Below are positions 2,040-20,004 of a DNA stretch of 21,051 nt, one piece after another. Under the pieces are notes generated by a model, which was given only the letters and a program-made list of their open reading frames with translations, was not told where the DNA came from and made no database searches. How positions within the stretch are numbered: position 1 is the first letter of the stretch; the number at the start of each line of letters is the position of its first letter. The translations under genes and the position numbers were made by a program. The stretch lies in IMG/VR virus record IMGVR_UViG_2579779002_000005. One strand, written 5' to 3'. Source of the stretch: a virus. Taxonomy: Duplodnaviria; Heunggongvirae; Uroviricota; Caudoviricetes.

Positions 2040-2349
2040 TTATTCCCGGTAGTTTTCCTCTGTAGGTTATCAACACATCCTGCGCCTCTAAAATTACGGG
2101 GCGCTTTTCCGGCGACTGCTCATCCCCTTCACATAACCCGGCAGCAACATCCAGGAAGACCTGTCTGATGCTCCTTCTGGCTGCTGCCTCATAAAACTCC
2201 AGCGCGGCACCTTCAACACGGTCCAGCGAGATGTCCAGGTCAAAAATTTCACCGTCAAAGCGTTTTTTGTCCCGTAACGCTAAAGTTACCGTAACTTTAT
2301 TCTCAAAATTGCGGATCCCTTTCACAATCAGTTCATAGTTTTGAGTCAT
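2005..2349 (-). CDS. YdfR-like (DUF1327-type) lysis-cassette protein
   Basis: 114-aa ORF starting 5 bp after the holin stop. A protein of this size sits between holin and lysozyme in the E. coli Qin prophage (essQ-ydfR-rrrQ); the family assignment is from memory. Confidence 0.5.
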   Translation of the reverse strand: MTQNYELIVKGIRNFENKVTVTLALRDKKRFDGEIFDLDISLDRVEGAALEFYEAAARRSIRQVFLDVAAGLCEGDEQSPEKRPVILEAQDVLITYRGKLPGIITGSLKSPPKW

Positions 2350-2353
2350 TGAA

Positions 2354-2569
2354 TTACTCTCCCCGTGCAGCCTTACGACGGTCCTCTCTGATTTTGAAAT
2401 ACAGGTTAGTCAGATATGTCAGCAGCCCAAACAGCAGACTCCCCAGCACGCCTATTGCCGCCCACTGAGACGGGGAAACCCTGTCCAGCAACTGCAGGAA
2501 CCAGTAGCCCGTTCCCACCGCTGACGTGGTGTATGACACACCTGTTGTGATTTTTTCCATCTGGTACAT
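2354..2569 (-). CDS. S: Holin (lambdoid S-type, about 71 aa)
   Basis: Taking the internal start [13 protein letters not shown]..., the product has two hydrophobic segments (GYWFLQLL and [17 protein letters not shown]) and a charged C-terminus [11 protein letters not shown]. It lies immediately upstream of the lysis genes. Confidence 0.8.
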
Positions 2570-2719
2570 ACCCCGTCTCCCGTTATCCGGAAGCTGACAA
2601 CAATAAAAAAAGCCACCAGTTAAGTACTGATGGCTCTGATAACTCATGCAGGCATCTCAGACGACCCACTGACACTACCGGTGAGTTTAACGATACCTTC
2701 CATTTGACTGGCTCACTTT

Positions 2720-4576
2720 TTATGATGATGCTGGTGCATTTATCTCCAGCACCAGACTTTCTATCTCAACGCCATACGCTGCATTTTTGGTAATATCCGT
2801 CAGCGTCAGCGCATTCAGCCCCAGTGTCAGACTGTCTTTTATGACCTGGAATGCCGGGCCAGCCACTCCATTCAGTTTCGGAGTAACCGTGGCACTGCCG
2901 GCGGTGAACACCAGCTCCAGCGTCTGCCAGTCGTTACTGTAATTCCCGAACTCGCCCAACTTTGTGTTTCCTGCTTTCCTGTGATGCATCAGATTCAGTT
3001 TGCCGTCTGTGGTCTGGGTGAAGAACGACATCAGGAACGGGTTACCAGTCCCGGTCATCGCCACGACGTCAGGTAACGCTACATCGGTATACAGATAAAT
3101 TCCCAGACCGAACTGGTTGTTGGTCAGTGCGCCTGACAGTCGAAACTTACAGCTCAGTCTGCCACCCCGTGTCAGCAGGGAGACTGCGTCATCCACCGGA
3201 TGCATCAGGGACCAGGTTTTATTGCTCTGCTTGGTAACCTTAAACACACCATCTTCCAGCGCAACACTGCCGCCGGTGATGGTCCAGCCCTGCGCAGCAG
3301 CCTCTCCGGCTGTCGGCAGCAGGGAGACTGTACGAACGGATGTGTCACCATCAGACGGCCCCGATGGCGTGTCGCCGCCGGGCGAGGGTTTAATCTCCGG
3401 TGCGGTACCGCTGATGAAGGCGCTGGTTCGACCAACTGCGTTCAGAATAGCGGTTGCCAGGCGATCCGAAATAATGCCCCTGCGCGCCCATGAACTGAAA
3501 TGTGTCGGACGATTTGACGATACCCAATTACCATTACTACGGGATTGCGCGCCGTAATAACCTGCATCAGCAATATCCGGGTCTTCTGCCGGTAAGTTGG
3601 TGGGCGTGTTGTTGCCGTTACCGTCGGTCATGAACGGCACAAAGAAAACGTTGTCGCTCTCCCTGTTTTTGTACGCGCCGTAGACGGAGTCATACTGTGT
3701 GCCGTATGTGTTTTTCCAGTAATACGTCGTGTCGCCACAAATCCACGGTACAACTGCAGCACTGCCGCCATGGCACTGCGCCGCCAGCCCGGCAAGGTCA
3801 GCACGGAACTGCTGTACCATTGCAAGAAATGCTGCTGGCTGCTGGGCGTAACTGGCATTCGTCATATCGAATTCCCCCTGCATCCAGCATATCGCCAGCA
3901 AAACGTTTTTCGGGTTTTTCTGCAATGCTGCCTTCGTGCGGAAAAGCAGATCCTGATATAATGGTTTACCCACACCCCAGCGTGCCGAATCCTGGCTGGC
4001 CCCCGTGTCCGCACTGAATGTCCCCTCCGCGCCCTGGGTGAATGCCGAACCACCACGACAGCATGGTACCAGCAGGATCCCCGCATTATTAGGGATATAC
4101 GGAAGCAGTTTTTTGGCAATATGTAAGCCCTGTCCGACACAGCCGTACTGCCCTTTGCTCAGGTCAGCCCGGGGATGGTTAATCGTACTCATATCCTGAA
4201 CATCATGCAGACAATGGTCAGCAGGAATGATGTCGTTAAATACGCATACTTCACCACCGGGAGTCACTGTGTTACGACGGGCCAGTTGCTTAATGCGCGG
4301 ATGGGGCGCATCGTATGAATCCGGAAGCGGAAGCCCTTCACCGTAAGCCATGGCATTGGACTGCCCGGCCAGTACGATGACGTAGTACCACTCCGGCTCA
4401 GTTGCACCACTGACGACCACATCACCTTCTGCTGCAATCGCCTGCATCAGGGTATAAGGGGTTATGGCCACCGGACTACCAAACGGCTGCCAGCCCTCTT
4501 TCAGTTTATGTGTCAGCTTTTCCGCAAGATCTGACGGCGACGCCGCCCTGACAACATCATAGTGTTTAAATGCCAT
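2720..4576 (-). CDS. nanS-p: Prophage sialate O-acetylesterase (NanS-p-like, SGNH/SASA esterase domain)
   Basis: 618 aa with a GQSN nucleophile block (VIVLAGQSNAMAYGEG). Located between the tRNA cluster and the holin, as in Stx-type lambdoid phages. Confidence 0.75.
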   Translation of the reverse strand: MAFKHYDVVRAASPSDLAEKLTHKLKEGWQPFGSPVAITPYTLMQAIAAEGDVVVSGATEPEWYYVIVLAGQSNAMAYGEGLPLPDSYDAPHPRIKQLARRNTVTPGGEVCVFNDIIPADHCLHDVQDMSTINHPRADLSKGQYGCVGQGLHIAKKLLPYIPNNAGILLVPCCRGGSAFTQGAEGTFSADTGASQDSARWGVGKPLYQDLLFRTKAALQKNPKNVLLAICWMQGEFDMTNASYAQQPAAFLAMVQQFRADLAGLAAQCHGGSAAVVPWICGDTTYYWKNTYGTQYDSVYGAYKNRESDNVFFVPFMTDGNGNNTPTNLPAEDPDIADAGYYGAQSRSNGNWVSSNRPTHFSSWARRGIISDRLATAILNAVGRTSAFISGTAPEIKPSPGGDTPSGPSDGDTSVRTVSLLPTAGEAAAQGWTITGGSVALEDGVFKVTKQSNKTWSLMHPVDDAVSLLTRGGRLSCKFRLSGALTNNQFGLGIYLYTDVALPDVVAMTGTGNPFLMSFFTQTTDGKLNLMHHRKAGNTKLGEFGNYSNDWQTLELVFTAGSATVTPKLNGVAGPAFQVIKDSLTLGLNALTLTDITKNAAYGVEIESLVLEINAPASS

Positions 4577-4769
4577 GAATCCTCCCGGCCGGGATAATAT
4601 TGTGAGTAAAATGAGGAGCGGGCTGAAGTCCGGAAGTTACAGGACAATGGCAGAAGAGAGACAACAGCCCGCAATACGAAAAAGGCCGCGCTATTGCGCA
4701 GAGTGATTACTGTCGGATATTATTCGCCAGCTGAAATATTACTTCACGTTTTATTGTTTATTCCTTGCC

Positions 4770-4798
4770 GCCCGCGTCTCCCAGCGCGGGCTTTTTTT
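4770..4798 (+). terminator. Plus-strand intrinsic terminator with no obvious upstream plus-strand gene
   Basis: gcccgcg tctcccag cgcgggc hairpin (7-bp GC stem) followed by TTTTTTT. Confidence 0.5.
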
Positions 4799-4806
4799 GC
4801 CCACAA

Positions 4807-5044
4807 GAAAACCCCTCCGGAGAGGGGCTAAAGCCGCGTATCTGTATCATCATGCACATGGTGCCGGGTGCCTCCCGGTGAGTTCAGCCCGGTGCCACTA
4901 AACCCGCGTCATTCTCGTTTTGATAATCAGAGATTATACCGTCACCAGTCGCCCCTCCGCTCAGGGGGATTCACCATGCGAAATTTTTTTAACAAATGCC
5001 CAGTCTGACAGGCAACTGTCAACTTACTGAATTGTGAGCAACAT
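4807..5044. repeat. Copy 1 of an imperfect ~220-240 bp direct repeat (non-coding module)
   Basis: Shares with copy 2 the blocks cccctccggagaggggct, catggtgccgggtgcctcccggtga, gcccctccgc.cagggggattcaccatgc, ttttaacaaa and acagtcaac..ctgaattgtgag. Confidence 0.7.
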
Positions 5045-5292
5045 AGCATTTAACGGGGAACCTGTTTTCTGCAGTAAAAAGGCCCACCGGAGCGGATGGG
5101 CCTGGAAGGATAGCGGTCATGTGATGCCGGTTTCCCGGTAACTCAGCACCGGTATCTGAGTCAACGTTTTCTCTACTGGGTCATTTCCGATACGCCCTGC
5201 CTGCTGACAGGCTTTCATCACATCTGAAAATATAGCACCCTGACTGATACTGTAGTACCTAAGGTTCCAGAAACTGTGATGTATCCGGCACA

Positions 5293-5512
5293 GAAAAGCC
5301 CCTCCGGAGAGGGGCTGGAGAGTGGCGCTATGTGCCATTGCATGGTGCCGGGTGCCTCCCGGTGAATTCAGTACCAGCACCTGAATCCGCGATTATCCCA
5401 TATACCTACTCGCTGATTGCCCCTCCGCACAGGGGGATTCACCATGCCAGTTTCTTTTAACAAACTCCCCGCAAACCAGACAACAGTCAACCGCCTGAAT
5501 TGTGAGACATTT
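5293..5512. repeat. Copy 2 of the imperfect direct repeat
   Basis: Same conserved blocks as copy 1. On the minus strand its gcccctc tccg gaggggc hairpin is followed by TTTTCT, so it looks like a terminator. Confidence 0.7.
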
Positions 5513-5551
5513 AAAAAAAAGCCCGCAAAAGCGAGCCAGTGAAAATAAGTG

Positions 5552-5628
5552 TGGCGCGTTGTACTGGATTCGAACCAGTGACCGATTGCTTAGAAGGCAA
5601 TTGCTCTGTCCGGCTGAGCTAACAACGC
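5552..5628 (-). tRNA. tRNA-Arg (anticodon UCU)
   Basis: Minus-strand sequence folds as a cloverleaf: acceptor GCGTTGT/ACAACGC, D stem GCTC/GAGC, anticodon stem ATTGC/GCAAT with loop CTTCTAA, T arm ACTGG-TTCGAAT-CCAGT, encoded CCA. Confidence 0.85.
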
Positions 5629-5641
5629 AGGATACAGATAA

Positions 5642-5718
5642 TGGACCGCCTTCGGGGACCCGAACTCCGCGCAACCAGCTTCGAAGGCTGGCGCTCTTTC
5701 CTGATGAGCTAATGGCGG
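5642..5718 (-). tRNA. tRNA-Arg (anticodon UCG), slightly degenerate
   Basis: Cloverleaf with anticodon stem CCAGC/GCTGG and loop CTTCGAA. It has one acceptor mismatch (A6-A67), one T-stem mismatch and T-loop TTCGGGT (G at position 58). The anticodon loop is palindromic, so strand is assigned from the neighbouring tRNAs. Confidence 0.6.
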
Positions 5719-5725
5719 TATGTGA

Positions 5726-5801
5726 TGGTGGCCCTTGCTGGATTTGAACCAGCGACCTGGCGATTATGAGTCGCTCGCTCTCACCACTGAGCTAAAGGGC
5801 C
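5726..5801 (-). tRNA. tRNA-Ile2-like (anticodon CAU, ileX/ileZ-like; could be read as Met)
   Basis: Perfect acceptor GGCCCTT/AAGGGCC, D arm GCTC-AGTGGTGA-GAGC, anticodon loop CTCATAA, T arm GCTGG-TTCAAAT-CCAGC, CCA end. Closely resembles E. coli ileX as I recall it. Confidence 0.85.
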
Positions 5802-5850
5802 GGGAGCAGAATAATAATGGTGCGTAATTAATTCTGCAATCTCATCCGTT

Positions 5851-6900
5851 TCAAACGATTAAATCCTGAACTTCCCTGACTGTCTGCTCAAAACGTCCGG
5901 TCTCCAGCTCAACACCAATCGCACGACGCCCCAGTGCCATCGCCGCTTTTACCGTTGAACCCGACCCCATGAAAAAATCCGCAACCAGATCACCAGGACG
6001 GCTACTTGCGCTGATTATCTGCTGCAGCATTTCTGCCGGTTTTTCGCACGGATGTTTCCCGGGATAGAACTGCACCGGTTTATGCGTCCACACATCGGTA
6101 TACGGCACCTGCACCGTCACGCCAAAATACCGCCGCAGATGTTTATATTCACTCAGCAGCTCCGCATACTGCCGGTTCAGTGAGGTATACGTATCCACCA
6201 GCTGGTGGTGGAGCTTTTCCAGTTCACCACGCCGATGCTTCTCTTCTGCCACCCGGGCAAACAGCGCCTGTAATTTCAGATAATCGCTTTCATTCGGTAG
6301 CTGCCACTGACTGGCACTGAACCAGTGCGACACCATGTTTTTCTTTCCTGTGGCATCTGCAATCTGTTTTGCCGTTATCCCCAAGGCCGCGCGCGCATCA
6401 CGAAAGTAAGAAATCAGCGGGGCCATCACATGCTGTTTCAGTGCACTGCCCTTCGCCGCATACCCGGCATCTTTCGGACGATACGGCCCCTGATAATGTT
6501 CCGCGAACAGAATGCGCTCTGTGGCGGGGAAATACGCCCGCAGGCTTTCCTTGTTGCACCCGTTCCAGCGTCCGGACGGCTTCGCCCAGATAATATGGTT
6601 CAGCACACTGAAGCGTTCACGCATCATGATTTCGATATCAGATGCCAGGCGATGACCACAGAACAGGTAAAGACTTCCGGCAGGTTTCAGCACCCGCCAG
6701 AACTGCGCCAGACACTGGTCCAGCCATTTCAGGTAATCATCGTCGCCCTTCCACTGGTTATCCCAGCCCTCAGGCTTCACTTTAAAGTACGGCGGGTCCG
6801 TGACTATCAGGTCAACAGAATTTTCGGGTAACGACCGGATAAATTCCAGGCAGTCGGCGTTGATTAACTCACAACTGGATATTTTTACAGTATTAAGCAT
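5851..6900 (-). CDS. DNA N6-adenine (amino) methyltransferase, no cognate restriction enzyme evident
   Basis: 349 aa with the catalytic DPPY motif near the N-terminus (LIVTDPPYF) and an AdoMet-binding FFMGSGST motif near the C-terminus. No nuclease gene is adjacent. Confidence 0.85.
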   Translation of the reverse strand: MLNTVKISSCELINADCLEFIRSLPENSVDLIVTDPPYFKVKPEGWDNQWKGDDDYLKWLDQCLAQFWRVLKPAGSLYLFCGHRLASDIEIMMRERFSVLNHIIWAKPSGRWNGCNKESLRAYFPATERILFAEHYQGPYRPKDAGYAAKGSALKQHVMAPLISYFRDARAALGITAKQIADATGKKNMVSHWFSASQWQLPNESDYLKLQALFARVAEEKHRRGELEKLHHQLVDTYTSLNRQYAELLSEYKHLRRYFGVTVQVPYTDVWTHKPVQFYPGKHPCEKPAEMLQQIISASSRPGDLVADFFMGSGSTVKAAMALGRRAIGVELETGRFEQTVREVQDLIV

Positions 6901-7474: not shown

Positions 7475-8296
7475 CTATCGCGTTACCCTCTTTAACTGCC
7501 GCTCCGCCCATGCCTCTTCAATGTCAAACCGAACCACCAACGTATCGTAAAAGCGTTTCACTGATTTTTTCCACGTATCAAGCGTGATAGCACTCGTCAC
7601 TTTGCGTATGGCATTAAATGCCTCCGTTGATGGTAGTCTTTCACAGCCACGACCACCACAACGCTGGCAGTCTCTGATAACAGGCATACCACGTTTTACC
7701 GACTCTTCACGATGAATGGCAACACCACGCCCACGGCAGTCTTTACAGGCAGTGGAAATCTCCCCCTTCCCTTTACATTCAGGACAAGAAACTTTCACCA
7801 CCTCCCGAATTTTTTTCCATTCTTCCCAGTAAGACGGATACACACCTTTCGTACACTTTGCCCATACTGGCGGCTTGCCATCCGGATACTGAACCTTGTT
7901 TGTAAAAACTTCGCCTTCAATAAATTTTTCCCCTCGGCAACAGGGGCACTGCTTTTTACTCGCTGCGCTGCGGGCATAATCCTCAAAAGCGTACGAAGCC
8001 ATAATGCGCATCACTACCGGTTTTATTTCTGCCGGAAGTTTTCTCAACGCCGCCACACGATCGCACCGACTGAGTGCATAATCTGCCAGTAATTCTGTTG
8101 CCCGCGCCCTGTCATTCATACTGATGCCCATTTTCCCCAGGAACGCAGAAAACCCCATCTCAGCCCGATTCTGTGTCATGCCCTGCGCGGCCATCACATC
8201 AGTGATACTCAGCGCATCTTTCGACGTTGAGGCCGATGCATCAGTCAGGCCGGGGGATTTTGGGGAGTAGTATTTCGGTAAATCTTCCAGTTTCAT
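7475..8296 (-). CDS. Putative late-gene antiterminator (Q-like) with four DnaJ-type CxxCxGxG zinc-finger repeats
   Basis: 273 aa containing CPCCRGEK, CPECKGKG, CKDCRGRG and CQRCGGRG. Its start overlaps the rusA stop (ATGA), and it occupies the Q position of the DUF1364-DUF968-rusA-Q order. Confidence 0.5.
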   Translation of the reverse strand: MKLEDLPKYYSPKSPGLTDASASTSKDALSITDVMAAQGMTQNRAEMGFSAFLGKMGISMNDRARATELLADYALSRCDRVAALRKLPAEIKPVVMRIMASYAFEDYARSAASKKQCPCCRGEKFIEGEVFTNKVQYPDGKPPVWAKCTKGVYPSYWEEWKKIREVVKVSCPECKGKGEISTACKDCRGRGVAIHREESVKRGMPVIRDCQRCGGRGCERLPSTEAFNAIRKVTSAITLDTWKKSVKRFYDTLVVRFDIEEAWAERQLKRVTR

Positions 8297-19295: not shown

Positions 19296-19700
19296 GGGTC
19301 AGGTGGAGTGCGTGCGCCGGACACGGGTGAACATCCGGCACTGACAGTTTACTGAAAGGATATGTCCCTGAAAAGTCAGGGCATAACGCGAAAGCGCACG
19401 GCGAAATTGGTCTCTCTGTACGGTGTCGTTAAATTTAGTTCGACCGTGCGCTTCCGGTTGTGGCAATCCGCGAAATGGTGCGGCGGTAAGTATGGCGGGG
19501 TTATTCCTTCCCCCGTTGAGGACACCGGGTTGTCAGGTTGACCATACGCTTAAGTGACAACCCCGCTGCAACGCCCTCTGTTATCAATTTTCTGGTGACG
19601 TTTGGCGGTATCAGTTTTACTCCGTGACTGCTCTGCCGCCCTTTTTAAAGTGAATTTTGTGATGTGGTGAATGCGGCTGAGCGCACGCGGAACAGTTAAA
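19296..19700. other. GC-rich structured non-coding region with nested hairpins and repeated GCGTGCGC / GCGCACG motifs in alternating orientation
   Basis: Hairpins ctccac..gtggag (about 19284..19308), ccgga..tccgg (19317..19340) and ccctga-aaag-tcaggg (19366..19381). CGTGCGC occurs at 19311 and 19445, and its complement GCGCACG at 19394 and 19681. The only long ORF here (19617..20222, minus) looks spurious. Confidence 0.3.
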
Positions 19701-19815
19701 ACCAAAAACAGTGTTATGGGTGGATTCTCTGTATCCGGCGTTAATTGTTAACTGGTTAACGTCACCTGGAGGCACCAGGCACCGCATCACAAAATTCATT
19801 GTTGAGGACGCGATA

Positions 19816-20004
19816 ATGGAAACGTTATTACCAAACGTTAATACGTCTGAAGGTTGTTTTGAAATTGGTGTCACTATCAGTAACCCAGTATTTACTGAAG
19901 ATGCCATTAACAAGAGAAAACACGAACGGGAGCTATTAAATAAAATATGCATTCTTTCAATGCTGGCCCGTTTACGTCCGATACAAAAAGGATGCTGGCA
20001 ATGA
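19816..20004 (+). CDS. Hypothetical 62-aa early protein
   Basis: Start METLLPNV with a GAGGA Shine-Dalgarno about 8 nt upstream; its stop overlaps the next start (ATGA). Confidence 0.4.
   Translation: METLLPNVNTSEGCFEIGVTISNPVFTEDAINKRKHERELLNKICILSMLARLRPIQKGCWQ

What the first reader, a model, noticed from the sequence alone, without database searches (positions are those of the whole stretch)
4577..5520. Duplicated ~220-bp structured module in the position where Stx phages carry stxAB
Seen in sequence: two imperfect direct repeats (about 4807..5044 and 5293..5512) lie between the tRNA cluster and nanS-p. Each copy has a GC hairpin that reads as a terminator on the minus strand (gcccctc-tccg-gaggggc plus a T-run). 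Each also has a second hairpin (cccctccgc.caggggg) overlapping a GGGGG Shine-Dalgarno and an ATG on the plus strand, opening short peptides with a conserved start (MRNFFNK... and MPVSFNK...), and a TTGACT hexamer on the minus strand. Established knowledge: in Stx-converting phages the Q - tRNA - stxAB - nanS-p - S - R order puts toxin cargo exactly here; this window has no AB5 toxin ORFs. Inference: the repeats may be small RNA genes, leader-peptide regulatory units, or remnants of a cargo-exchange site.
Basis: partly seen in the sequence, partly recalled or inferred. Interest (0 to 1): 0.55.

Follow-up and report, generated by a model that had tools for sequence, protein, structure and literature searches.

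The report
Tandem STnc100-family prophage small-RNA genes
The duplicated module is a tandem set of known prophage small regulatory RNA genes (Rfam family STnc100, relatives of EcOnc27/sRNA103 and PasD), with a third, diverged copy between them, so it is real but largely ordinary.

Summary
The repeats are real: 69% identical, and the alignment score is z = 17.7 against shuffles. Both are full-length matches on the minus strand to Rfam RF02076 (STnc100): 161 bits at 5008..4799 and 136 bits at 5476..5286. The minus strand is the late-operon strand. The "spacer" between them is a third, diverged copy (5247..5074). It scores 30 bits, below Rfam's cut-off of 47, but keeps the family fold through compensatory changes.

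Each unit has a conserved extended -10 promoter and its own intrinsic terminator. The most promoter-distal unit converges on a plus-strand sRNA (about 4617-4798). That sRNA is 98% identical to an Hfq-bound sRNA candidate from enteropathogenic E. coli (EPEC), of the EcOnc42/21/08 class.

This is the published "convergent sRNA" arrangement at the moron site of lambdoid prophages. Stx phages carry stxAB followed by one STnc100 copy at the same place.

The plus-strand "leader peptides" are artefacts. Their ATG is the complement of the closing-stem CAT, and "FFNK" is the complement of the -10 box. The ORF runs 5-32 aa and is sometimes absent.

In passing, I found that the dicF-dicB spacer (19643-19809) holds a terminator-less copy of the same RNA domain.

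Verdict: known family, known site, low novelty.

The parts
5512..5537 (-). Intrinsic terminator directly after the tRNA cluster (GGCTCGC-TTTT-GCGGGCT plus T8). It marks the upstream edge of the sRNA array.
   Evidence: Terminator scan. 933W annotates a terminator at the equivalent place between argO and stxA.
5448..5505 (-). Promoter region of unit B. It contains a conserved upstream box TCACAATTCAG (5505-5495), TTGACT (5490-5485), a -35-like TTGTCT (5483-5478), an 18-nt spacer and an extended -10 TGTTAAAAG (5462-5454).
   Evidence: Coordinates. TGTTAAAAA is nearly invariant in 15 of 16 family members, although it lies upstream of the fold. PasD2, whose 5' end was mapped by RNA-seq and Northern blot, starts at the homologous GCAUGG, 7 nt after its TAAAAA box.
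5292..5447 (-). sRNA unit B (STnc100 family), predicted transcript about 156 nt. The Rfam match spans 5476..5286. The terminator stem is 5316-5297.
   Evidence: RF02076 at 136.3 bits, E 2.4e-30, full length. The MFE fold reproduces the family architecture.
5225..5247 (-). Promoter of the middle unit: extended -10 TGCTATATT (5237-5229), with no good -35.
   Evidence: Read from the sequence. This is inference only.
5075..5224 (-). sRNA unit M, a diverged third paralogue, about 150 nt. Closing stem AUGUGAUG/CAUCACAU. Terminator 5103-5080 followed by UUUUU.
   Evidence: RF02076 at 30.1 bits, below the cut-off of 47; E 6e-4 in a 3.6-kb search and 4e-5 in a 251-nt search, full-length alignment. My own model R1 gives 36.7 bits, E 1.7e-8. 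The MFE fold has the same helices.
4980..5037 (-). Promoter region of unit A. It contains the upstream box TCACAATTCAG (5037-5027), TTGACA (5022-5017), a -35-like TTGCCT (5015-5010), an 18-nt spacer and an extended -10 TGTTAAAAA (4994-4986).
4803..4979 (-). sRNA unit A (STnc100 family), predicted transcript about 177 nt. The Rfam match spans 5008..4799. The terminator stem is 4829-4810.
   Evidence: RF02076 at 161 bits, E 1.1e-36, full length.
4617..4798 (+). Convergent plus-strand sRNA gene of the EcOnc42/21/08 class, antisense to the nanS-p 5' leader. Terminator 4770-4791 plus T7. Putative seed CCUUGCC just before the terminator. The 5' end is uncertain: 4617 by homology, or a short form of about 54 nt starting near 4745.
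   Evidence: 98% identical to EPEC E2348/69 1444797-1444978. RIL-seq lists that region as an Hfq-bound sRNA candidate with cfa and dppA chimeras and EHEC homologues EcOnc08/21/42. Terminator.
5552..5801 (-). Context: tRNA cluster Met/Ile(CAT), Arg(TCG), Arg(TCT), upstream of the array.
   Evidence: ARAGORN and Rfam.
2720..4576 (-). Context: nanS-p-type esterase gene (DUF1737 + SASA + DUF6645), immediately downstream of the array.
   Evidence: Pfam.
19643..19809 (+). Related feature elsewhere in the window: a terminator-less STnc100-like 5' domain in the dicF-dicB spacer. Its closing helix is 21 bp (19649-19669 paired with 19780-19800).
   Evidence: R1 at 58.6 bits, E about 1e-14. RF02076 at 38.7 bits, below the cut-off. 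Fold z = -5.2. Nearly identical in E. coli K-12 Qin.

Best explanation
The region is a head-to-tail array of three paralogous small-RNA genes of the STnc100/PasD family. They lie on the minus strand, the late-operon strand, in the moron site of a non-Stx lambdoid prophage, between the tRNA cluster and nanS-p.

Each unit is an independent gene. It has a sigma-70 promoter dominated by an extended -10 element and a transcript of about 150-180 nt. The first nucleotides of the transcript pair with a distal segment and close a conserved multi-helix 5' domain. A short, unit-specific single-stranded linker follows, then a Rho-independent terminator.

In the lysogen, the units are transcribed and stop at their own terminators (inferred from homologues). 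The products act in trans as Hfq-associated base-pairing regulators. The linker just before the terminator serves as the seed, as RIL-seq indicated for PasD. The three linkers differ, so the array would supply three regulators on one scaffold.

Unit A converges on a plus-strand sRNA of the EcOnc42/21/08 class, which gives the published "convergent sRNA" arrangement. During lytic growth, Q-modified RNA polymerase is expected to read through all four minus-strand terminators into nanS-p and the lysis genes.

Shown here: family membership of A and B, the shared fold, the terminators, the conserved promoter box, the synteny and the distribution. Inferred: expression of these particular copies, Hfq dependence, seed position and targets.
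For: 1. Rfam RF02076 gives full-length hits at 161 and 136 bits (cut-off 47) on the minus strand. A third full-length hit of 30 bits lies between them.
2. A covariance model built from 16 family members finds all three units, PasD1/2 and nothing else in the late region.
3. On the 25-sequence alignment, 98.1% of cells form standard pairs. 22 of 35 pairs show changes on both sides, against 8.3 +/- 2.0 in shuffles and 2-5 with slid partners. The middle unit keeps the closing stem through UGGUG/CACCA changing to UGAUG/CAUCA.
4. TGTTAAAAA upstream of the fold is nearly invariant. It sits 7 nt before the position where PasD2 RNA starts.
5. Terminators are enriched, 10 found against 1.7 expected.
6. 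Synteny holds in every locus examined: the hits lie on the same strand as stx/nanS-p, between the tRNAs or stxB and nanS-p.
7. Homologues have been detected experimentally. EcOnc27/sRNA103 was seen by Hfq-CRAC and Northern blot downstream of stx2B (PMC4104026, PMC7873438). PasD1/2 were seen by RIL-seq and Northern blot (PMC8550237). EDL933 has eleven STnc100 copies, most of them transcribed, and one is Northern-confirmed (PMC5331693). ChIP-exo figures for RpoD and RpoN binding are shown for the Salmonella LT2 copies (PMC10794520).
8. The 5' 174 nt are conserved across 356 phage records, while the 3' linker is swapped in a mosaic way. This fits a constant scaffold carrying variable seeds.
Against: There are no expression data for these particular copies or for this host.

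The middle unit is below Rfam's gathering score and has no recognisable -35, so it could be a decaying copy.

The U-tails are short and interrupted (UUUUCU, UUUUCUU), which is weak for a classical Hfq 3' module.

No target of any STnc100 member has been validated by compensatory mutation. In the EPEC data table, PasD levels did not fall in the hfq comparison, so Hfq dependence of stability is uncertain.

Unit A's single-sequence MFE fold differs from the consensus, and its energy is not better than shuffles (z = -0.9).

The loops of the 5' domain are invariant at the nucleotide level, and the domain also occurs inside the dicBF operon without a terminator. Both point to an additional role that the seed-pairing model does not explain.
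Confidence: 0.8

Rival explanations
1. The modules act mainly in cis on the late operon. On this view they are a stack of terminators and structured RNA domains. They would keep nanS-p and the lysis genes silent in the lysogen, and after Q antitermination they would serve as processing or stabilising elements of the late transcript. The small RNAs would be by-products.
For: Four minus-strand terminators lie within 750 bp, directly upstream of nanS-p. The same 5' domain occurs without a promoter or terminator inside the dicBF operon. There, its 21-bp closing helix coincides with the RNase III site reported to give the 72-nt DicF (PMC9438474). StxS sets a precedent for a terminated late-transcript by-product that became a regulator (PMC7547250).
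Against: Each unit carries its own conserved -10 box placed to start transcription exactly at the closing stem. The closing stem of the sRNA units is only 8 bp, so it is not an RNase III substrate. Homologues are abundant, discrete, Hfq-crosslinked RNAs in uninduced lysogens and form chimeras with many mRNAs (PMC4104026, PMC8550237, PMC5331693). The two roles are not mutually exclusive.
Confidence: 0.1
2. The repeats are leader-peptide regulatory units read on the plus strand, with a GGGGG Shine-Dalgarno sequence, an ATG and a short conserved peptide (MRNFFNK / MPVSFNK).
For: Both copies have an ATG 6-7 nt after a G-run, and the first residues look similar.
Against: Across 21 family members the ORF is 5, 10, 13, 16, 17, 21, 28 or 32 aa long. 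It is absent in 4: the ATG is lost in two (GCGTGG in PhiR5_2 unit B; GATGTG in the window's middle unit), and the 5'-arm motif the script keyed on is missing in two. The ATG is the complement of the CAT in the closing stem GCAUGG. The G-run is the 3' arm of the 5' hairpin. FFNK is the complement of TTGTTAAAAA. No plus-strand promoter was found upstream, and nothing lies downstream on that strand for such a leader to regulate.
Confidence: 0.02
3. The repeats are non-functional recombination debris. On this view the conserved blocks are the homology patches at which lambdoid phages exchange cargo. The extra copies (unit B, and especially unit M) would be leftovers of unequal crossovers that replaced or removed a moron such as stxAB.
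For: The family is strikingly mosaic. Promoter-proximal, internal-loop and 3' linker segments occur in different combinations in different phages. Most Stx phages align to the 975-bp query as a single collapsed unit. The partner sRNA on the other strand is swapped for AsxR or AgvB at the same breakpoint. The EPEC PP6 copy is split by ISEc13.
Against: All three units keep a promoter box, the full fold with compensatory substitutions, and a terminator. The triple array is maintained in two sequence variants that differ by about 14% in the middle unit. It occurs in 673 of 5426 complete E. coli genomes and in 5 phages, which is not what decay predicts. Mosaicism is equally expected for functional modules.
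Confidence: 0.06

Closest known systems
STnc100 (Rfam RF02076), also known as EcOnc27 in E. coli O157 Sakai and sRNA103 in EDL933
   Same: Units A and B are full-length members (161 and 136 bits). They share the strand relative to the late operon and the position immediately upstream of nanS-p. They also share the 5' hairpin, closing stem, CCGGG-AGGCA-CCCGG hairpin and terminator.
   Different: Here stxAB does not precede the RNA, and there are three units in tandem instead of one. The 3' linkers of A and B differ from that of 933W EcOnc27. A's linker matches phage ASU11. B's matches Stx2_EC3283, phi296, PhiR12_2, vB_EcoS-640R1 and EPEC PP6. My inferred transcription start lies about 30 nt inside the Rfam model, whose first 30 positions look like promoter.
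PasD1/PasD2 of EPEC E2348/69 (RIL-seq sRNAs; Pearl Mizrahi 2021; Zhu, Shabalina and Storz 2026 preprint)
   Same: PasD has the same promoter box, the same 5' start GCAUGGUGAAUCC, the same closing stem and the same position upstream of the sialate esterase gene. It scores below Rfam's threshold against STnc100 (41 and 38 bits), just as the middle unit does at 30 bits.
   Different: The PasD seed UUCCUUGUGAG and its terminator are absent from all three units here. [quoted passage not shown]
Convergent sRNA pairs at the moron site of lambdoid prophages (Tree et al. 2014): EcOnc27/AsxR, EcOnc06/AgvB
   Same: A sense sRNA and an antisense sRNA sit with back-to-back terminators between the moron and the conserved esterase ORF. 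In 933W, STnc100 is followed by AsxR on the other strand. In Shigella phage 75/02 it is followed by an AgvB-like RNA.
   Different: The antisense partner here is not an AsxR/AgvB-type anti-sRNA. Neither Rfam family hits the window at E up to 5. It is the EcOnc42/21/08-type RNA instead. The two types share the promoter-proximal 125 nt next to nanS-p and are swapped after that point.
Tandem paralogous sRNAs such as OmrA/OmrB and PrrF1/PrrF2, and the multi-copy Qrr sRNAs
   Same: This is a resemblance in how they work. Adjacent or multiple copies share a scaffold and terminator but differ in a short segment, which gives overlapping or distinct target sets.
   Different: There is no sequence relationship. 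Those sRNAs are core-genome genes with known regulators, whereas these are phage cargo with unknown inputs and targets.
dicF-dicB spacer of Qin-type prophages
   Same: It contains the same 5' domain: closing stem, GAAU, hairpin and CACCUGGAGGCACCAGGCACC (58.6 bits with R1, 38.7 bits with RF02076).
   Different: It has no promoter box, 3' linker or terminator. Its closing helix is 21 bp. It lies inside an operon transcript between DicF and the dicB start codon.

Membership tests
STnc100 (Rfam RF02076) | Covariance-model score at or above the curated gathering score of 47 bits | tested here: met
   Unit A scores 161 bits and unit B 136.3 bits, both covering model positions 1-206.
STnc100 (Rfam RF02076) - middle unit only | Covariance-model score at or above the gathering score of 47 bits | tested here: not met
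   30.1 bits; E 6e-4 in a 3.6-kb search and 4e-5 in a 251-nt search. It is homologous (R1: 36.7 bits, E 1.7e-8). By Rfam's criterion it is a diverged relative, at about the same distance as PasD (38-41 bits).
STnc100 / PasD family | Shared secondary structure: closing stem, 5' hairpin, central hairpin, CCGGG hairpin and terminator | tested here: met
   98.1% of cells are paired and 22 of 35 pairs change on both sides. No shuffle out of 500 reaches the observed values, and slid controls give 31-48% paired. The alignment was fitted to the model, which inflates these counts somewhat. An independent MAFFT plus RNAalifold run gave the same helices.
STnc100 / PasD family | Own promoter and Rho-independent terminator, that is, an independent gene | tested here: inconclusive
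   Terminators are present for all three units. A conserved extended -10 box lies 7 nt before the fold. The generic promoter scan did not call these sites, because TAAAAA lacks the final T. No transcription-start data exist for these copies.
STnc100 / PasD family | Location in the late region of a lambdoid prophage, co-directional with Q, upstream of the sialate O-acetylesterase gene | tested here: met
   Q is at 7475-8296, the methylase at 5851-6900, the tRNAs at 5801-5552, nanS-p at 4576-2720, then holin and lysozyme. The same order holds in 12 related loci.
Hfq-dependent trans-acting sRNA | Hfq binding and base-pairing with target mRNAs | not testable with these tools
   Known only for homologues (Hfq-CRAC in PMC4104026; RIL-seq in PMC8550237).
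Anti-sRNA class (AsxR RF02703 / AgvB RF02702) for the convergent plus-strand RNA | Match to the AsxR or AgvB model; a 51-60 nt RNA with the conserved 42-nt 3' region | tested here: not met
   Neither family hits window 2300-5900 at E up to 5, although both are found at the equivalent place in 933W and Shigella phage 75/02. The 3' 95 nt differ.
EcOnc42/21/08 class, equivalent to EPEC E2348C_1409.E2348C_1408.IGR sRNA | Sequence identity to the experimentally delimited RNA, same terminator and CCUUGCC seed, antisense to the esterase leader | tested here: met
   98% identity over 272 columns, including the whole 182-nt RNA. The link to the EcOnc names rests on the paper's table S6, not on my own comparison.
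Shiga-toxin (AB5) moron | stxA/stxB ORFs between the tRNA cluster and the sRNA/nanS-p | tested here: not met
   Only two ORFs over 60 aa lie in 4577-5551, and neither has a Pfam match.

The most novel reading that the evidence does not exclude
The conserved 5' domain of STnc100/PasD would be a portable phage RNA module with a function of its own, not merely a scaffold for a seed. The same domain sits, without promoter or terminator, between DicF and dicB in Qin-type prophages, including E. coli K-12. There, its lengthened closing helix coincides with the RNase III cut reported to make the 72-nt DicF. In the late region the module has been multiplied into a three-gene array carrying different 3' seeds.

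On this reading the domain is an RNase III/RNase E processing element, a 5'-end-protecting element or a protein-binding element. Lambdoid phages would place it after terminators in both their early-left and late operons. STnc100-type sRNAs would have arisen when such a module captured a promoter and a terminator.
Probability: 0.25. Interest if true: 0.5.

Novelty: already known. Interest (0 to 1): 0.22.

Why it matters
The practical value is in annotation. RefSeq labels this stretch "hypothetical protein" or leaves it blank. It actually holds four small-RNA genes, at the position where Stx phages carry their toxin genes.

STnc100 relatives next to stx2 have been linked to clinical outcome in O157 (PMC12711010) and to the RNA content of outer membrane vesicles (PMC12370729), yet no target has been validated.

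The array shows that non-Stx prophages of extraintestinal E. coli (S88, IHE3034, UM146, NU14) carry up to three differently "seeded" versions side by side. That makes these strains a convenient place to test what the family does. The link to the dicF-dicB spacer gives a K-12 handle on the conserved domain.

Tried and rejected
1. I scanned genome contigs with the 15-base pattern CATGGTGAATCCNCCT to sample other species. The pattern was too short for 596 Gb.

2. I tested the TTGACA/TTGACT hexamers as -35 elements and rejected them. They lie 25 nt from the conserved -10. The adjacent TTGCCT/TTGTCT at 18 nt fits better.

3. I tested whether the middle unit is PasD and rejected that. It has no PasD seed or terminator, and direct alignment is poor.

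4. I tested whether the plus-strand RNA is AsxR or AgvB and rejected that.

5. I considered a pseudoknot between GAAUCC and GGAUUC/GGGUUU inside the 5' domain. I dropped it because it competes with two covarying helices and is absent from the dicB copy.

6. I considered pairing of unit M's CCUUCC linker with the nanS-p Shine-Dalgarno sequence. I did not pursue it, because any CU-rich linker pairs with any strong Shine-Dalgarno sequence.

7. I folded the units singly. Units B and M reproduce the family fold, but unit A's MFE does not (z = -0.9). Single-sequence folding is therefore weak evidence, and the covariation counts carry the argument.
Full report
CONTEXT. The window is the early-right and late region of a lambdoid prophage read on the minus strand. 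In order, it carries antiterminator Q (8296..7475), a DNA methylase (6900..5851) and three tRNAs (5801..5552). Next come the region in question, a nanS-p-type esterase (4576..2720; DUF1737 + SASA + DUF6645), a holin, a DUF1327 protein and a lysozyme. The 975 bases from 4577 to 5551 occur at 99-100% identity and full length in 353 of 5426 complete E. coli genomes. These include the extraintestinal strains S88, IHE3034, UM146 and NU14, and the type strain ATCC 11775. RefSeq annotates nothing there except fragments of "hypothetical protein". There is no AB5 toxin gene, and the two ORFs over 60 aa in the region have no Pfam match.

THE OBSERVATION. The two repeats are real. The Rfam-delimited units score z = 17.7 above shuffles. 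The repeat finder gives three co-linear blocks at 80-97% identity. Both GC hairpins followed by T-runs are called as minus-strand terminators, and the region holds 10 terminator-like sites against 1.7 expected.

WHAT THE REPEATS ARE. A scan of the whole window against Rfam gives two full-length matches on the minus strand to RF02076, STnc100. They score 161 bits (5008..4799) and 136 bits (5476..5286), against a gathering score of 47. A permissive scan shows that the 240 bases between them are a third full-length match of 30 bits (5247..5074), below the cut-off.

I built a covariance model from 16 family members taken from phages and prophages. It finds the middle unit at 36.7 bits (E 1.7e-8). 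It finds the EPEC sRNAs PasD1 and PasD2 at 38 bits. The middle unit is therefore about as far from canonical STnc100 as PasD is. A 2026 preprint from the Storz laboratory has already linked PasD to STnc100 by structure (10.64898/2026.05.13.724894).

The fold is well supported. On the 25-sequence alignment, 98.1% of cells form standard pairs. 22 of 35 pairs change on both sides, far above both controls. The alignment is fitted to the model, so these counts lean towards the structure. An independent MAFFT plus RNAalifold run gave the same helices, with six compensatory pairs. The middle unit keeps the closing stem as AUGUGAUG/CAUCACAU, where the family has GCAUGGUG/CACCAUGC.

ANATOMY OF A UNIT. 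The 5' end of PasD2 was placed by RNA-seq coverage and Northern size at CGCAUGGUGAAUCC, 7 nt after a TAAAAA box. The same box, as TGTTAAAAA, is nearly invariant in 15 of 16 STnc100 members, even though it lies outside the fold. It is an extended -10 element with a -35-like TTGCCT/TTGTCT 18 nt upstream.

I therefore infer that transcription starts at G4979 (unit A), G5447 (unit B) and about 5224 (unit M, which has TGCTATATT). If so, the first 30 positions of the Rfam model are promoter rather than RNA.

The transcript begins inside an 8-bp stem that closes a domain of three or four hairpins. A linker of 15-30 nt follows, which differs between units. A terminator ends the RNA. In PasD, the seed inferred from RIL-seq targets lies in this linker.

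Across 356 phage records the first 174 nt are conserved while the 3' part is exchanged. In the alignment, promoter-proximal, internal-loop and linker segments occur in different combinations. Unit A's linker matches the Stx2a phage ASU11. Unit B's linker matches Stx2_EC3283, phi296, PhiR12_2, vB_EcoS-640R1 and EPEC PP6. Neither matches that of 933W EcOnc27.

THE OTHER STRAND. The plus-strand "leader peptides" do not hold up. The ATG is the complement of the CAT in the closing stem, and the G-run is one arm of the 5' hairpin. FFNK is the complement of the -10 box. In 21 family members the ORF is 5 to 32 codons long and is missing in four.

Window 4560-4830 is 98% identical to the EPEC E2348/69 region that contains the RIL-seq sRNA candidate E2348C_1409.E2348C_1408.IGR. 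That RNA is 182 nt, has the seed CCUUGCC and forms many chimeras with cfa and dppA leaders. The authors equate it with EcOnc08/21/42 of E. coli O157. In the window it runs from about 4617 to 4798 and ends at the terminator 4770-4791, back to back with the terminator of unit A.

COMPARISON WITH STX PHAGES. In 933W, ASU11 and other Stx2 phages the order is tRNAs, terminator, stxA, stxB, one STnc100 unit, then an antisense sRNA, then nanS-p. In 933W the antisense partner is AsxR, and in Shigella phage 75/02 it is AgvB-like. Tree et al. described this as convergent sRNAs at the moron insertion site in eight Sakai prophages (PMC4104026; PMC7873438).

In the window, units B and M occupy the place of stxAB. 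The antisense partner is swapped at a sharp breakpoint about 125 nt from the nanS-p start.

The triple array is not unique to this window. The middle unit occurs in 673 of 5426 E. coli genomes, as two variants about 14% apart, and in five phages. It is absent from every Stx phage in the collection. PhiR5_2 and vB_EcoS-640R1 show the same canonical, weak, canonical pattern.

HOW IT MOST LIKELY WORKS. Homologues are abundant, discrete RNAs in uninduced lysogens. EDL933 has eleven STnc100 copies. Most are transcribed and one is Northern-confirmed (PMC5331693). EcOnc27 is crosslinked to Hfq (PMC4104026). PasD forms Hfq-dependent chimeras with core and virulence mRNAs (PMC8550237). Overexpression of sRNA103 raises fimZ and espA transcripts, by an unknown route (PMC7873438, PMC12711010).

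The best-supported reading is that the three units are independent sRNA genes. Their products would pair with targets through their different linkers. Their terminators are expected to be ignored by Q-modified polymerase during lytic growth. Expression of these copies, Hfq dependence, seed position and targets are all inferences. The cis-acting, leader-peptide and debris alternatives are weighed in the rival explanations.

A RELATED ELEMENT FOUND IN PASSING. The covariance model also hits window 19643..19809 on the plus strand at 58.6 bits. RF02076 scores 38.7 bits there. This stretch is the spacer between DicF (19590-19641) and the dicB start codon (19816). It has the 5' domain but no promoter box, linker or terminator.

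Its closing helix is 21 bp long (19649-19669 with 19780-19800; fold z = -5.2). The 72-nt DicF species attributed to RNase III (Faubladier 1990, as summarised in PMC9438474) would end at 19661, inside that helix. The same element is present in E. coli K-12 Qin. I did not find this homology mentioned in the papers I could search, but the search was limited.

VERDICT. The feature belongs to a curated RNA family, at a site whose sRNA content has been described since 2014. Three points go beyond what is already known:
- the tandem arrangement;
- a third, sub-threshold paralogue;
- the terminator-less copy of the domain in the dicBF operon.
These are modest additions rather than a new kind of system.

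Noticed in passing
window 19643-19809 (+); also L136 (E. coli K-12 MG1655) 1137-1303: The dicF-dicB spacer contains a terminator-less copy of the STnc100/PasD 5' domain (R1 at 58.6 bits; RF02076 at 38.7 bits, below its cut-off). Its closing helix is 21 bp (19649-19669 paired with 19780-19800). The reported RNase III-generated 72-nt DicF would end at 19661, inside that helix.
   Followed up: partly
window 4617-4798 (+): A plus-strand sRNA gene convergent with STnc100 unit A and antisense to the nanS-p leader. It is 98% identical to the EPEC RIL-seq sRNA E2348C_1409.E2348C_1408.IGR (EcOnc42/21/08 class, seed CCUUGCC). An extended -10-like TGAAATATT near 4730 could also give a short form of about 54 nt, similar in size to AsxR and AgvB.
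   Followed up: partly
window 4577-4703 compared with L132 (933W) and L131 (Shigella phage 75/02): There is a sharp mosaic breakpoint. The 125 nt next to the nanS-p start are shared with 933W. After that point the antisense sRNA is either AsxR/AgvB-type or EcOnc42-type.
   Followed up: partly
window 5495-5505 and 5027-5037 (-); also 4599-4607 (+): A conserved box TCACAATTCAG lies about 40 nt upstream of each canonical unit and is followed by GTTGAC. Its complement reads GAATTGTGAG(C), which equals a lac-operator half-site. A similar ATTGTGAG sits in the putative promoter of the plus-strand sRNA. Its function is unknown.
   Followed up: no
L132 (933W) about 1537-1550: Two variants downstream of stx2B were reported as tied to features predictive of haemolytic uraemic syndrome: a T/C SNP at +90 and a T deletion at +103 (PMC12711010). 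By my coordinates (+/-1 nt), they fall in the extended -10 region and in the TTT run between the -10 and the inferred start of the STnc100 unit. That suggests promoter mutations rather than changes in the RNA.
   Followed up: partly
window 5726-5801 (-): ARAGORN calls this tRNA Met(CAT). RefSeq annotates the homologous gene in S88 and EPEC as tRNA-Ile (ileZ-like, lysidine-modified), as in 933W.
   Followed up: no
L009 (EPEC E2348/69 PP6) 1549-1670 and 3121-3297: The STnc100 copy of prophage PP6 appears to be split by an ISEc13 insertion. The two halves score 29.8 and 136 bits with model R1.
   Followed up: no
L135 (phage vB_EcoS-640R1) 1299-2317: The same three-unit array is followed here by an iraM-like anti-adapter gene on the opposite strand, in place of the antisense sRNA. 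This is another example of cargo exchange at this junction.
   Followed up: no
window 19590-19641 (+): A canonical DicF sRNA gene (RF00039, 76.7 bits), followed by dicB (19816-20004, Pfam DicB). The window therefore spans a Qin-like immunity/kil region as well as the late region.
   Followed up: yes
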